From: Candidatus Rifleibacteriota bacterium
Lineage (GTDB): Bacteria; Muiribacteriota; Ozemobacteria; Ozemobacterales; Ozemobacteraceae
Assembly (NCBI GenBank): GCA_051747585.1
Contig: JBNJGH010000001.1
Span: 1 to 60,632, forward strand
Direction: 5' to 3'
Length of the DNA: 60,632 nt
Positions 1 through 27,000 of this stretch are shown piece by piece (the stretch's first letter is position 1; each line of letters starts with the position of its first letter). The position numbers are program-made.

Positions 1-3000
1 AACGCCGGAAGTTCTTCGCATAAAATAGTATTGGGGCCGTTTTCTTTTTCTTTATTGACAAGTTGCAGCATATTGCCGCTTAAAGAAAAGAAAATTTTGC
101 GGTTCGGCTCATTGTCACGCAAAGCAAAATTAGCTTCGTTTAGATATAAAAAACTTTTGTCGTAAGCAATTATCCCCGCAGCAAACTCTTTGAGATTTTT
201 CATAAGCAAATTTTAGCACAACCATATTGATACTTCCACTACCGGAATTGTAACTCAGTAATTATCCATTTGTTTTTAGAAACCGTTTCAAGACATTTAG
301 ATTGCTTCGCTTCGCTCGCAATGACACCCTATTGCGGTCCCTGAGCGGAGTCGAAGGGACCAGCTAATTGTTCACTTGGTGGTTTCGACTACGCTCAACC
401 ACCAATATACGATGACAGCCACAAATTGTCATTGCGAGGAGCGTGGCGACGAAGCAATCTTTATCGAGTTGCCAATAGTATAATAACAATAGTCAGGTTT
501 TTATTTTAACCGGGTTATGCTCGATGTATTTTTCGTTTTTTACTTTAAACACCGGTATTAAAAATTCCGTTTCAAACCCGATTCCCTGGCTGGCGGGCGC
601 AGAAACCTTTATATGCCATTCAAAAAGGTGTGATTCCTCTGGGTAAGATTCTTTTACATCTTCGGGCATCGCAATAGTGGCTTTTATAAATGGTTTCCCC
701 TGGTAAATATCAGAGGGTTTGCGCTCGACTGAATAGTTTTCTTCGAACAATGTTTTATCTTCGGGTGAATCCGGTCCTTTCCAGACTTCTTCAAGATAGA
801 GTTTGATTTTAAAAGTGCCCTGTTTAATATTTTTGGGCAAAATAATATAAACATCGGTTTCATGACCTGGTATTAAGGGTTTTTGAGTCAATATCAATAC
901 AGATTCACCGTATTTTATATATCTTAATGTTGCTATTATAGAGTCATATATAACTGCCAGGGCTGCTAATAAGATAAAAATGCAGAAAAGCTTTAAATAC
1001 CAGGGCATAGGTTCTGAAGGATCTAATAAAACAGAGGCACATACAATGGCAAAAAGCGTAAAGGAAATTGCCAGAGTTATTTTGAAAAAAATGTTTTTTA
1101 GTTGTTGCGATTTAAGCGAAAATGATTGCCAGAAAGGGTAAATTTTCCAGGGTTGTGATTGATTTTTTTCATACAATAAAAACTTTTTTCTTTTGTGCGA
1201 ATAAGAAAATAAGCCGAAACCTCCTATTGATACTCCTGATATTAGAAAAAGCAGGCTGACAATTATTCTGGTGCTGTAAATGGATGTTGCTTTATAACCT
1301 ATGTAAAAACCTGCCAACATCATTATCAGGCCGGGTATCGTAAACGCAATTGCACTGAACAAAGATGGCGGGTATATGGGAAAATCTCTCACTTTCATAA
1401 TTTATCCTCCCTCTCTTTGAATTATAACAAAACCATAAAAAGATAAAGATACAGTCCAAATCAACCGATATACAGAAGGAATATTTATATGAATTCATAA
1501 AAATCTTACCGGTAAAAAGGATATATAACAGATGCTGAAGCATTTTCCGGAAAATGCCAAGGAGTTAATATGAAGCGATTAAATGTGCTGTTCTTCGCTT
1601 TGCTGATAATATTTAATTTTTATACAATTGAAGTTGCAAAAGCAGACTTTGAAATGATCAATGTCCAGGTTTCGTTACAAAACGATGCCGATGCCAATGG
1701 TTATGTCAATCAAGGCGACACAATAAGATGTCGTTGTAATGCAGTTGTAGACCCGGGGGACAGCCCTGATGGCTGGCAGGTTCCGCCTACTGTTGATCTC
1801 TCCAATATTGGGATGTCTAGTGTAACTATGAATGACCAGGGCGGAGATACATATCAGGTGGATGTTGTTCTCAATAATTGGAATCAGAACATAAATTATC
1901 AGTCTGAAATAATAACCTTTTATGCGATAAGTGCGAATGATTTGGTCTTAAGAGAATATGATGTTTCTGTGGTTTTTGATCTTTGTCAGGTTGAGGGAAC
2001 TGGAGCAAGCGCTTCTCCAAACAATGCCGGAATTGGTTCAACCCTCTTTATTGAAATTACCGATAATAAATATCAATCAGACCCTTCAGGCGGAACTGTT
2101 GCTACAGTAAATCTTGAACCAATTGGTTTGAATGCTACTACTCCTTTAACCTACCAGGGTGCTGGAGTATTCAGCGTTACTACTGATCCAATTCCGGAGG
2201 GAATTAACTATACGGGGCCTTTGACTATAACATTGAACGATCCAATGATAGGTCATCCCGCAATTGGTTACCAAACCAACAATATTAACGTTGATACAGC
2301 CGGTCCGGATGTAGATTTTAATGCAACAACTGTTGTTATTCAATCTGGAAATGCCACCGCTATTCCGGGCGATGTGCTTCGTATAACAGCAGGTGTCAAT
2401 ACTTATGATAATGAAACCGTTACTGTTTCTAATGCAGACCTGGATGCAGTAGCGGCGAATCCGCCTTTAGCAGGTGGGTTAGCTATGCCTTTAATAAGTT
2501 CTTCAGGCATCGGGAACCCGGCAACCTGGCAAGTTGATGTCACTCTAAGCGAAGATGATTTAAAAAATACCAGTTTGCCAATAACTTTTACCTTTGAAGA
2601 TGATATGGGTAATGTCAGTACTGTTACCAGGTATGTGCCAATTGATCTGGATAAACCAAACATGGTTGATTCTTCGGTTAATATTATGTTGCCTGATGGT
2701 GCTTATTCATCTTTGGATGTGGCTACAACATCATGTACTTTGGAAATGGTTTCCACAATTACTGTAGATGTAGGCCCTGATCCTCTAACCGTAACCATTG
2801 ATCTGAGTCCTATAGGGGGGGCTTCAGATCAGCCAATGTCACAGTTTGGTCTCTCAGACCAATATAAAGCCACTTATTTAATTGGCCAGGGAGCAATTGA
2901 GGACGGCGCACAACACACTTTTGTTGTTTCGGCGCGAGATGATGCAGGTAACCTTGTGGCTCAGGCTACCACCCCTGTCATAAGAATTGACAACAATCCT

Positions 3001-24000: not shown

Positions 24001-27000
24001 CTTTCAGATAAAGCCGGTAATCAGGTAACTACCAAAGCGATTCGCTTCAAGTCATCACCTCCTCTTAATATTTATGAAGTAACTCAATTCCCGAATCCGG
24101 CCAACAGAAGGGTTAATTTGCGAATAAGCACAAACAGGCCTGATGTTGATGCAGGAGAAATTGAAGTGAAAATATACGATGTCTCAGGTCACAAAGTGGC
24201 TGATATGAACCAGCTTATCTTGAGGCCGGACAATAACGGAGCTTTACCTGTGCAGGATGTGATATGGGATTTGCGGGCTGCCGGCGGTAGAGAGGTTGCC
24301 AATGGTGTTTACTTCGCAAGAATTACTTTGCGAGATCCGGATAACTGGAACAAGAAAACCAGATATACTCACAAAATCGCAGTATTACGCTGATATAGCT
24401 CATGATTGGAGATGGCAAAATGAACAAAAAAATACTGGTGCTGTTTACCATTGGAATAATTATTATGATAGCCAGCGGCTGCGGTAGCGGCGGCGGCAGT
24501 GGGCGATATACCATTCCGCCTGAAATACCCTCTCCGGGTACCGGCGGGACGGGCGACACCGGTGGTGGAGACTCCGGAGAAACCGACCCGGATTCTTTGA
24601 TTGCATCGGCCTGGGAAGATTTTAGATATGGTGCCTACAGTAGTGCCATCAATAAGTTTAACCAGGTGCTGACCTTGAGCAATATTTCTGAAGAACAGAA
24701 AGTTGCAGCATATAACGGTCTTGGTTGGTCATTAACCAAATCTTCAGGAGTAGAATCCGGTTATTCTTCTTTTACTCAGGCGGCTTCGGCGAATAATGAA
24801 GCACGAGTGGGGCTCTCAGCAGCTTTGATTCAGCGCGGTCAGCTTGCAGGCTTCAAGCAGGCGATTCAATTGCTTGAAGAAGTGGGTTTGCAGAATACCG
24901 CTTTTGTTTTTCAGTCAACTCATCCGATTGGAATTAGCAATGCTGAGGCTCATGCAATGCTGGCTTTCTGTTACTTCTGGCGAAATGAGCTGGGAGATCA
25001 TGATAAAGCACGGGCGCAGATAAATGTTGCAAGAGCTGAAGACAGTTCAAATGACAGTTCAGTCGCTCAGATATACAACTCTTTGAAAGACCTTGGCTTG
25101 TCAGGCATTTGAGCCTTGTAAAGTCTTAGTCATGCTTTGATTGAAAGAAGCAAAAACAATTAAATTTATAAAAATCGTTTATAAATTTAACAAAATTGCC
25201 GAATAGATAGATAACCAGTTCTATCGACTTGTAAGGGGAAACAATATGAAAAAAGTTTTTAAAACTCTCTTCCTCATCGCTCTCAGCGTAGGAACAATGG
25301 GCGCTGCATTCGCAGACTCGGCGGGCCAGGCAGGGGCGTATCTAAAAATGGGTGTTGGTGCCCGAGCACTTGGTATGGGCAGTGCCTTCACTGCAGTAGC
25401 AGACGATTCAACCGCTGCTTTCTGGAACCCGGCCGGTCTGGCAAGACTTAAAAGAGCCGAAGGCTCGTTTATGCATGCCGATCTGACCATGGACCGGGAA
25501 TACAACTTCTTCAACTATGCTCATCCGCTCAAAGACAGTGATGGTAATGATCAGGGCGTGGTTGCTCTCTCACACATCAGATTCGGTGTTGACGGCATTC
25601 CCGAAACCAGAATGGCTAGCAACGACCCCACCGGCACTCTTCCGGCAACAAATGCTGACGGAACTTACACAGCAGGAAAACCGGTTTATATTTTCAGCTA
25701 CTTTGACGATACCGAGCAGAACACTTTCGGTTCTTATGCCCGCAAACTATCTGACCGATGGTATGGCGGTGTTAACGTTAAATATTTAAGCCAGGATTTG
25801 TTTACCAATTCAGCCGATACTTTTGGCTTCGATCTGGGTTTCCTGTATGAAGCTACCGAAAAAACATCAGTTGGTCTTTCAGTAAGAGACTTATGGGAAA
25901 CTCTCGAGTGGGATACCGCGTCTGGACAGTCAGACAAGGTGCCAACCACTACTTCGATCGGTATTGCTCATAGACCTAATGACAGACTGACTCTGGCTGC
26001 AGATATCAATAAAGTTGAAAATCTGGAAGCCGAATTGTTTATCGGGGCAGAGTGGTGGTTGCAGGACTACGCAGCTTTGAGACTTGGCAGCCATGATAGC
26101 GATTTGACTCTTGGTGCCAGTTTCAAACTGGATACCTGGCGCTTTGATTATTCTTACGCCGATGAAACTTTAGGAGATGCTCATAGAATTTCAGCGGCTA
26201 AGCAGTTCTAACAAAAGGAAAATGTATATCCCCTTTTTAATACCCTCCTCTTTCTCTTGCATCTAAGAGAAAGATGAGGTAATTTTAGGAGAGAATCTGG
26301 CAGAAGAATACTGGGAGGAAAACTCAGATGGAAATAAGAATTGATGTAAGACCTAAAAGTAACGATGTAACCCTGGTTGTATTAAGGGGAGAGATCGGTA
26401 CAGAAACGGTGAACCAGTTTAAAGACAAGATTGATCAGATCGTTGCCGATGGCAAGCACAAGCTGGTAATGGATTTTCAGGAAGTTAACTATCTTAACAG
26501 CATGGGGCTTGGGGTAGTTGCTGCAACCTTGAAAAAAGTAAAAAAGAACAAGGGTGATTTAAAGCTTATTAATTTGTCGCCAGCTGTTCAAGAGCTTTTT
26601 GAGCTCACCAGACTGACAAAAGTTTTTGAAATTTTTGATTCTGAAGAGGATGCAGTAAAAAGCTTTTCCTGATTTTGTTAATTCTTTTGCCAGAATAATT
26701 TTATTTTGTCTCAGGTTACAGCATTAAAAAATATTTTAGATATAAATGGCAAAACGAAAATTTTTGCCATAGCAGGCGACCCGGTTGCACATTCATCAAG
26801 CCCTGGGCTCTGGAACAGGGCTTTTTCTGATTTAAATTATAATGCTGTTTATATTCCAATGCGGGTGAGCATTCAAAACCTCGAAAAAGCATTGTCGGGG
26901 CTACAGGCAACAAATGTGACAGGTATTAATTTAACAATGCCTCATAAGATTGAAGCCGTAAAGTATTGTTCGCAATTGCATCATCCGGCAGACTGTCTTG

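What a model noticed while it worked through the whole genome (the two positions that open the first line are those of the whole stretch)
1570..26211. T9SS-type C-terminal sorting domains and PorV without a type IX secretion machine
Five large surface proteins of this genome, among them two tandem giants of 3955 and 3273 aa (g00003, g00005), end in the same ~95-residue beta-sandwich domain (...PNP...YD.SG...VANGVYFA...K[IFL]AV[LV]R-COOH) that matches the type A C-terminal sorting domain of type IX secretion cargo; three of them are each followed by a small related lipoprotein, and the giants' cluster ends with a PorV/PorQ-family outer-membrane barrel (g00007), while no SprA/Sov translocon or GldK/L/M/N (PorKLMN) motor is detectable. 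I read this as a stripped-down or ancestral relative of type IX secretion in a phylum outside the Fibrobacterota-Chlorobiota-Bacteroidota group: CTD-tagged adhesins are handed to a PorV-like [...]
Evidence so far: In-house HMM from the C-termini finds 5 proteins with the domain at the very end: g00003 C1:1570-13437, g00005 C1:14572-24393, g01362 C36:11949-14993, g01487 C40:24452-29167 (cut), g01914 C62:7763-10408. ncbifam.tsv names g01487 and g01914 T9SS type A sorting domain (TIGR04183) and g00007 PorV/PorQ family (NF033709, E 2.5e-38, 98% of model). Scan of 4 isolated CTDs: all 4 hit the C-terminal ends of PorU (NF033707, E 1e-12 to 3e-8, model 995-1095/1095) and TIGR04183 (E 3e-7 to 8e-5), 3 of 4 PorZ, 4 of 4 a T9SS-dependent M6-like protease; g00007 130 bits vs cut-off 90. 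AlphaFold2 of the g00005 CTD: 7-strand sandwich, pLDDT 80; best Foldseek PDB hits are the CTDs of PorU 6za2 (E 1e-3, TM 0.63-0 [...]
(Added by a program. Inside this text positions count along the whole contig: contig position 1 is position 1 of the stretch shown here. "Call 12" and the like, gene names such as g00115 and contig names such as C1 are that model's own, and its searches are not shown. The text may have been shortened before it was handed on; [...] marks where a part breaks off. The agent that wrote the report below was given it as the finding of a first reader that could run no searches.)

Follow-up and report, generated by a model that had tools for sequence, protein, structure and literature searches.

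The report
Motor-less type IX secretion in Riflebacteria
An uncultured Riflebacteria genome has tagged giant surface proteins, their carrier barrel and a previously overlooked half-size relative of the type IX secretion pore, but no recognisable type IX motor, which suggests that the outer-membrane core of this secretion system can work, and may have arisen, without its usual engine.

Summary
Cargo and carrier are confirmed; 'no translocon' is wrong. Five proteins end in a T9SS-type CTD. The PorV-family barrel passes its cut-off and is modelled binding the CTD (0.93 vs controls 0.00; possibly from memory of solved complexes).

It matches the SprA model weakly (E 7e-8) and folds into about 38 strands. 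It aligns end to end with SprA over 703 of 830 residues, and its family profile hits a true SprA in two colinear segments. It is a separate lineage, not shown to be an ortholog, and strongly matched in 80 of 87 genomes of the phylum. Shorter paralogs sit in barrel-cargo-PorV operons at 9 loci in 8 genomes. GldL, GldM and GldN were not found (0 of 87, 41, 87), and GldK and PorU stayed below cut-off in the 4 genomes tested; the positive control rang.

Best reading: a motor-less, cap-reduced T9SS core. Export through this barrel is inferred, not shown. The scan noted similar systems in other phyla; I found none in print.

The parts
1570..13437 (+). Giant cargo 1 (g00003), 3955 aa; signal-peptide-like N terminus, T/S/D/V-rich Ig-like repeats (Big_13, Big_5), one internal FlgD-Ig-like domain
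13114..13434 (+). C-terminal sorting-type domain (CTD) of cargo 1, ending at the last residue
13441..14184 (+). TPR lipoprotein-like protein 1 (247 aa; lipobox-like Cys followed by a G/T-rich linker, read by eye); 40% identical to lipoprotein 2
14216..14245 (+). Intrinsic-terminator-like hairpin (13 pairs, T run) closing the cargo 1 + lipoprotein 1 unit
   Evidence: consensus scan only
14572..24393 (+). Giant cargo 2 (g00005), 3273 aa; paralog of cargo 1 (34% identity over the last 1125 aligned columns)
24076..24390 (+). CTD of cargo 2; TIGR04183 23.0 bits at cut-off 23; modelled bound to the PorV-like barrel through its YD.SG, ANGVY and terminal K.A.V.R segments
24402..25112 (+). TPR lipoprotein-like protein 2 (236 aa); relatives lie right after CTD cargo genes in many related loci
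25246..26211 (+). PorV/PorQ-family outer-membrane barrel (g00007, 321 aa, ends in Phe); the only copy over the NF033709 cut-off in this genome
27641..30608 (+). pilB and pilT type IV pilus ATPases downstream of the PorV-like gene; same order in a near-complete relative (G014). Neighbours only, no link shown
55334..56443 (+). Second, weaker PorV/FadL-like barrel (below cut-off), preceded by a TPR lipoprotein-like gene (54498-55331); role unknown. The SprA-like barrel itself lies outside the window, at G000:C33:15259-18198(+) = L031:8260-11199

Best explanation
Riflebacteria and their phylum (Muiribacteriota in the broad sense) run the outer-membrane core of type IX secretion without the Gld energy chain. 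Step 1 (inferred from N-terminal sequence, by eye): cargo is exported by Sec and folds in the periplasm. Step 2 (homology shown, function inferred): its CTD enters a compact, about 38-strand SprA-family barrel (C33, 979 aa) that keeps SprA's first strands and one small extracellular beta-domain but lacks most of SprA's cap. [quoted passage not shown] Step 4 (hypothesis): the PorV-cargo pair leaves the pore sideways without a motor. In SprA, the translocon walls and cap bury about 1000 A2 of the CTD and energy is needed only for release (PMC10994853), so a cap-poor pore would hold cargo more weakly. With no PorU sortase, the CTD is probably not cleaved. Cargo stays on PorV, is passed to its co-encoded TPR lipoprotein, or is shed; the lipoprotein is a cargo-specific chaperone or anchor (inference).
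For: CTD, PorV-like barrel and SprA-like barrel co-occur: 41 of 41, 40 of 41 (39 over cut-off) and 85 of 87 genomes (80 with E <= 1e-100). The near-complete G014 (2 contigs) has 6 CTD matches, one PorV over cut-off and a single SprA-family match, the compact one. The barrel model has pLDDT 86.9, about 38 strands and short strands 3-5. VIA aligns 703 of 830 residues to SprA 6h3i_A 136-2401, against at most 461 for any other listed barrel; Foldseek TMq is 0.47 to 6h3i_A. The family profile A3 hits a true SprA (2413.9 bits on TIGR04189) in two colinear segments, barrel strands (E 1e-7) and insert plus following strands (E 6e-16). Conservation is highest in the first strands and the insert. Shorter paralogs (about 600-740 aa) lie in co-directional three-gene clusters with a CTD cargo and a PorV-like gene at 9 loci in 8 genomes, which are probably no more than three independent events. 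PorV plus CTD scores 0.93, best of 3 controls 0.00; runs agree in at least 99% of contacts, partner pLDDT at least 75; the mark was reached by 116 of 157 solved complexes and 2 of 215 mismatched pairs. GldM 0 of 41, GldL 0 of 87, GldN 0 of 87, while the Algoriphagus control passes GldK, L, M, N and PorU.
Against: No experiment shows export. The core barrel gene is not next to cargo or PorV here; it follows a xerD-like gene, and the operon-linked copies are a different, shorter paralog. The barrel is outside the large SprA/Sov clade (99 support), and FCB-type genomes carry both a large SprA and an uncharacterised compact paralog, so compact barrels may do another job. Structural scores do not single out SprA: it ranks 13th by Foldseek E-value and 45th by Z (15.9, rmsd 8.2), other SprA entries give TMq 0.23-0.27, and phmmer finds no PDB sequence at E <= 1. 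The insert domain matches phage tail domains as well as SprA (Z 8.2 tied). PorV-CTD complexes are solved (8GL6 and relatives), so the complex pass may be from memory. The genome has 8 secretins, an alternative exit. An open 38-strand pore needs a plug, and none was identified. In Bacteroidota, removing the motor traps cargo (PMC10994853).
Confidence: 0.6

Rival explanations
1. The CTD-PorV pair is only a surface-anchoring module. Cargo crosses the outer membrane by another route (type II secretion through one of the secretins) and is caught by the PorV-like barrel outside; the compact SprA-like barrel has an unrelated housekeeping role.
For: 8 secretins in this genome and in G014. pilB and pilT lie just downstream of the PorV-like gene, also in G014. 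The core barrel is unlinked to cargo. Of 80 PorV-centred loci, 40 had a CTD-ending ORF and 0 an SprA-like ORF.
Against: Barrel-cargo-PorV clusters at 9 loci in the same phylum. Compact barrels lie within a few genes of PorV and CTD genes in Eisenbacteria, Zixibacteria, Coatesbacteria and G067. All 49 of 49 PorV-selected genomes carry an SprA-family match.
Confidence: 0.17
2. The system is energised after all, by a different motor (an ExbBD/TonB-type transducer, or the T4P/T2SS ATPases) or by Gld homologs too diverged for the curated profiles.
For: 3 MotA/ExbB-family genes in this genome. The Gld profiles are built from Bacteroidota, and SprA itself was only weakly detected by its own profile. 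FGE-sulfatase-type GldK matches below cut-off exist.
Against: No motor-like gene was noticed beside the barrel or cargo in the loci mapped, where only ORF sizes and ends were inspected. GldL, M and N give no match at E <= 0.001-0.01 across 41-87 genomes.
Confidence: 0.15
3. The CTD is a generic FlgD-like Ig domain shared by descent and has no sorting role; the barrels are unrelated outer-membrane proteins.
For: FlgD-Ig matches occur both at the C terminus and internally in the giants. TIGR04183 scores are near or below cut-off for three of five cargo proteins.
Against: Strict C-terminal position on five unrelated passengers with a conserved terminal K.A.V.R. Gene pairing with PorV-like barrels across phyla. 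One operon cargo passes the Pfam CHU_C type IX signal cut-off (37.8 vs 27). PorV-CTD model 0.93 vs 0.00.
Confidence: 0.08

Closest known systems
SprA/Sov, the T9SS translocon (F. johnsoniae; PDB 6H3I, 6H3J, 8GL6, 8GL8; TIGR04189)
   Same: Very large single-chain barrel ending in Phe; colinear sequence similarity in the first strands and in the extracellular insert with the strands after it; end-to-end structural alignment over 703 residues.
   Different: 979 vs about 2400 aa; about 38 predicted strands vs 36 (PMC10994853); most of the cap missing; 30 bits vs cut-off 200; separate clade from large SprA.
PorV (LptO), carrier for type A CTD cargo (NF033709 family; NF033710 equivalog)
   Same: Passes the PorV/PorQ family cut-off; modelled binding the CTD through loop residues.
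   Different: Below the PorV, PorQ and PorV2 equivalog cut-offs (45/250, 61/220, 99/325); no PorU partner; often encoded right beside its cargo, as recalled for type B CTD/PorP pairs, although no PorP/SprF was found (0 of 4 genomes, control 8 copies).
Type A CTD (TIGR04183, PF18962) and type B CTD (TIGR04131, PF13585)
   Same: About 95-105 residues at the extreme C terminus with PNP, YD.SG, ANGVY and a Lys near the end.
   Different: Marginal scores; only 5 cargo proteins here; no sortase to cleave it.
Uncharacterised compact SprA paralog of FCB-type genomes (for example the 1165-aa ORF in Algoriphagus, L198)
   Same: Similar size and profile match (E 6e-41); near PorV/CTD genes in several phyla.
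   Different: Own clade (98 support); no Pfam or NCBIfam match at E <= 0.001; coexists with a full SprA, whereas Riflebacteria have the compact type alone.

Membership tests
Type IX secretion system (Bacteroidota) | Cargo with a C-terminal sorting domain | tested here: met
   5 C-terminal domains; 2 pass TIGR04183, 1 at cut-off when isolated; 41 of 41 genomes
Type IX secretion system (Bacteroidota) | PorV-type carrier barrel | tested here: met
   NF033709 130.1 vs 90; below the PorV equivalog cut-off
Type IX secretion system (Bacteroidota) | SprA/Sov ortholog over the TIGR04189 cut-off | tested here: not met
   30.1 bits vs 200; 0 of 41 genomes over cut-off; outside the large-SprA clade; control SprA 2413.9 bits
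SprA/Sov barrel superfamily (homolog) | Colinear homology to SprA strands plus insert, and a barrel of 36 or more strands | tested here: met
   structural scores alone are not decisive
Type IX secretion system (Bacteroidota) | GldL/GldM (PorL/PorM) proton motor | tested here: not met
   GldM 0 of 41, GldL 0 of 87; control over cut-off; very diverged forms not excluded
Type IX secretion system (Bacteroidota) | GldK/GldN (PorK/PorN) hub ring | tested here: not met
   GldN 0 of 87; GldK only partial matches far below cut-off in the 4 genomes tested, control over cut-off
Type IX secretion system (Bacteroidota) | PorU sortase | tested here: not met
   Only CTD-end matches and a stand-alone C25 peptidase without CTD in 4 genomes; control 1084 bits
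Type IX secretion system (Bacteroidota) | PorZ | tested here: inconclusive
   No genome over cut-off, the control included
Type IX secretion system (Bacteroidota) | SprE/PorW, SkpA, Plug, PorG | not tested
   No profile search run; the small TPR lipoproteins match only generic TPR clusters
Type IX secretion system (Bacteroidota) | CTD-dependent export through the barrel | not testable with these tools
   Needs genetics or reconstitution

The most novel reading that the evidence does not exclude
The pore-carrier-tag core of type IX secretion is an old, widespread diderm export system that works without an energy chain. The cap-poor, about 38-strand barrel of Riflebacteria is close to its minimal form and may be among the largest single-chain outer-membrane barrels known. 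The Bacteroidota system arose later by adding a cap and the gliding motor, the reverse of the published view that T9SS began as part of the gliding machinery.
Probability: 0.35. Interest if true: 0.9.

Novelty: new variant of a known kind. Interest (0 to 1): 0.72.

Why it matters
A 2024 paper states that T9SS genes are absent from phyla outside FCB (PMC11285876, passage read). [quoted passage not shown] A phylum-wide pore-carrier-tag set without Gld proteins challenges both. It also makes the role of energy testable: if a cap-poor pore releases carrier-bound cargo unaided, energy in Bacteroidota serves to undo trapping by the cap. A three-gene barrel-cargo-carrier cassette of about 7 kb (L260-L262) could be moved into a laboratory host, and could become a compact display system for very large folded proteins.

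Tried and rejected
1. Two TIGR04189 matches in about 2250-aa ORFs (G029, G035) looked like full-length SprA but are RNA polymerase beta-prime by their sequence; discarded.
2. phmmer of the barrel against PDB sequences found nothing at E <= 1. Pfam has no match for it.
3. Fold search of the isolated insert domain did not single out SprA; phage neck, tail and tailspike domains score as well or better.
4. Diverse barrel alignments had no stretch conserved enough for a named-genome scan, so other phyla were reached through PorV instead.
5. GldK-profile matches are partial and far below cut-off; read as generic FGE-sulfatase-fold proteins (family link recalled).
6. A C25 peptidase (C88) lacks a CTD and scores 52 vs 420 on PorU; not called a sortase.
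7. A second 637-aa barrel on C1 (71042-72955) matches only strand parts of the profile and not its N-terminal part; not counted as SprA-like.
8. Two RNA runs gave only short, low-depth contigs: no evidence on expression.
10. Papers: eight searches found no report of SprA-like barrels or T9SS in Riflebacteria/Muiribacteriota. Two giant-protein preprints have no T9SS terms. A family with at least 38 strands cited in 10.1101/2022.10.09.511469 could not be identified in the passages of 10.1101/2021.02.17.431615 that I saw; its supplement is closed and may bear on it. The 2018 SprA structure paper is not held, so the position of SprA's lateral opening relative to the short strands was not checked.
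Full report
Observation. The window holds, on the + strand, a 3955-aa ORF (1570-13437), a 247-aa ORF, a 3273-aa ORF (14572-24393), a 236-aa ORF and a 321-aa ORF (25246-26211). An HMM grown from the two giant C-termini converges on 5 of 18,094 genome ORFs, all with the domain at the very end; the next hit has E 7. Two pass TIGR04183 as whole proteins, and the isolated g00005 domain sits at the cut-off. The cut C40 protein continues on C214 (about 2756 aa). The giants are T/S/D/V-rich Ig-repeat paralogs; the C36 and C62 cargo carry HExxH motifs. Three related TPR lipoprotein-like genes follow three of the cargo genes. The 321-aa ORF scores 130 bits on the PorV/PorQ family model. 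Homolog names place the genome in Ca. Riflebacteria.

Across relatives, the CTD profile matches 41 of 41 genomes and the PorV family 40 of 41, 39 over cut-off. In 80 PorV-centred loci from many phyla, 40 had a CTD-ending ORF within 10 kb by my own profile. A complex prediction of the window's PorV-like barrel with the g00005 CTD scored 0.93, best of three controls 0.00; the runs agreed in at least 99% of contacts and partner pLDDT was at least 75. The mark was reached by 116 of 157 solved complexes and 2 of 215 mismatched pairs. The interface uses the conserved CTD motifs, including the Lys near the C terminus that also contacts PorV in F. johnsoniae (PMC10994853, parts 1-2 and passages read). 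Like complexes are solved, so this shows likeness, not binding.

The missed translocon. Searching with the SprA model at a loose threshold gave a weak match in 40 of 41 genomes, none over cut-off. In all but one of these the best match fell within model positions of about 570-720, mostly in ORFs of 800-1400 aa. In this genome it is C33:15259-18198, 979 aa, with a signal-peptide-like start and a terminal Phe, behind a xerD-like gene. AlphaFold2 on residues 150-979 (66-row alignment) gave pLDDT 86.9 and pTM 0.71. I count 38 long strands in the DSSP string, with alternating short turns and longer loops, three short strands near the N terminus and one 67-residue inserted domain after strand 7.

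Structural and sequence links to SprA. Foldseek ranks SprA 6h3i_A 13th by E-value but gives it the highest TMq (0.47; all other listed rows 0.28 or less, other SprA entries among them). VIA aligns 703 of 830 residues to SprA 136-2401 (rmsd 8.2, Z 15.9, rank 45), while higher-Z porins and ushers align 250-461. A search of 1.84 billion representatives found 716 clusters at E <= 0.001. Of 37 scanned, 3 pass the TIGR04189 cut-off and are matched colinearly in two segments. Named members come from Wallbacteria, Margulisbacteria, Armatimonadota, Firestonebacteria and Desantisbacteria. A 64-row profile of the compact family hits the true SprA of Algoriphagus in two colinear segments (E 1e-7, 6e-16), one of them barrel strands only. 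The insert alone is a small beta-domain shared with phage tail proteins; SprA is tied near the top (Z 8.2) with the highest identity. It is present once here and up to six times in longer members.

Distribution and context. The profile matches 85 of 87 genomes of the phylum, 80 with E <= 1e-100, and 44 of 44 high-quality genomes, 3 of these only weakly; the profile contains members of this phylum, so the scores are partly by construction. The near-complete G014 has one match only. Shorter paralogs of about 600-740 aa lie directly beside a CTD cargo and a PorV-like gene, all on one strand, at 9 loci in 8 genomes: G026, G037, G040, G131, G135 (one family), G027 twice, G033 and G123. One such cargo passes the Pfam type IX signal CHU_C cut-off. 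In 49 genomes picked by PorV hits (49 of 80 loci passed on), all 49 have an SprA-family match, many both a large (1550-2400 aa) and a compact (1100-1300 aa) one, but only the 3 Algoriphagus have GldM. In the tree, large SprA (99), FCB compact paralogs (98) and the core barrels of this phylum (92) are three separate groups with unresolved deep nodes (45 of 90 rows). So the barrel is a homolog of SprA, not shown to be its ortholog.

What is absent. GldM 0 of 41, GldL 0 of 87 and GldN 0 of 87. GldK and PorU gave only partial, sub-cut-off matches in the 4 genomes tested, and PorP/SprF none, while the Algoriphagus control passed all of them. PorZ was inconclusive. The genome does have 8 secretins and 3 MotA/ExbB-family genes.

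Mechanism. Shown: tag, carrier and a pore homolog co-occur and, in relatives, cluster; the Gld chain is not detectable. Inferred: folded cargo enters the compact barrel CTD first, binds the carrier's loops and leaves sideways. In F. johnsoniae loading needs no energy, SprA buries about 1000 A2 of the CTD, and energy serves release (PMC10994853). A barrel that lacks most of the cap would grip less, so release might be spontaneous; this step is a hypothesis. I put the whole model at 0.6, export by a secretin with PorV as a surface anchor at 0.17, a different or very diverged motor at 0.15, and no sorting role at 0.08.

Comparison and novelty. It works like the outer-membrane half of T9SS but fails membership on the SprA ortholog, motor, hub and sortase. 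Print places T9SS in Bacteroidota and possibly other FCB phyla and calls it absent elsewhere (PMC11285876, passage), and derives it from the gliding machinery (PMC12635249, passages). Eight paper searches (listings, plus passages of the papers named here and of PMC12204202, PMC13721041, PMC13755416, PMC7323717, PMC12419801 and 10.64898/2026.03.07.710327) found no report for this phylum; subscription journals are mostly not held. NCBIfam's broad PorV/PorQ family name shows that such barrels are already annotated without a system attached. This scan has noted motor-less T9SS-like sets in Margulisbacteria, Bipolaricaulota, Elusimicrobiota, Goldbacteria, Gemmatimonadales and FCPU426 (unchecked notes, seen after my reading was formed), but none for this genome's barrel or phylum in my look-ups. 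What this case adds is a phylum where the compact barrel is nearly universal, usually the only SprA-type pore, and joined by three-gene cassettes. Verdict: new variant of a known kind, interest 0.72.

Noticed in passing
L198:9290-12784 (Algoriphagus, G041:C7) and L199-L212: Bacteroidota and FCB-related genomes carry a second, compact (1100-1300 aa) SprA paralog; the two scanned had no Pfam match. It often lies between an NHL-propeller gene and a POTRA/Omp85 gene and near PorV/CTD genes; function unknown.
   Followed up: partly
L224, L225 (Wallbacteria), L254 (G031), L237 (Eisenbacteria), L265 (G113): ORFs of 1500-3400 aa with the SprA-like part towards the C terminus and a long N-terminal passenger-like region: possible cargo-pore fusions resembling autotransporters. 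The four that were in the tree form one clade.
   Followed up: no
L223, L227, L229, L230, L231, L232: Large SprA genes of Elusimicrobia, Coatesbacteria, Eisenbacteria, Calditrichota and KSB1 lie head to head or tail to tail with gene pairs that look like lptF/lptG (judged by their N-terminal sequence only).
   Followed up: no
G000:C1:71042-72955 (-), outside the window: A conserved 637-aa outer-membrane barrel, about one copy per Riflebacteria genome, between a LysM/M23-like gene and a carboxypeptidase-like gene (by eye); matches only the strand part of the barrel profile.
   Followed up: partly
L031:8707-9351 (insert domain of the barrel): The small extracellular domain that SprA-family barrels repeat one to six times has the fold of phage neck, tail-adaptor and tailspike domains.
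   Followed up: partly
window 14404-14440: A short intergenic stretch between lipoprotein 1 and giant 2 attracted many unrelated RNA contigs; probably low-complexity sequence.
   Followed up: no
G000 whole genome: Eight secretin genes, also eight in G014: an unusually rich type II secretion / type IV pilus complement.
   Followed up: no
L213:64-1278: A PorV-like barrel in a barrel-cargo-PorV operon has a C-terminal ComEA-type helix-hairpin-helix extension; several PorV-like proteins of this phylum have long C-terminal extensions.
   Followed up: no
G000:C88 (L239:9157-11220): Stand-alone gingipain-like C25 peptidase with propeptide but no CTD.
   Followed up: partly
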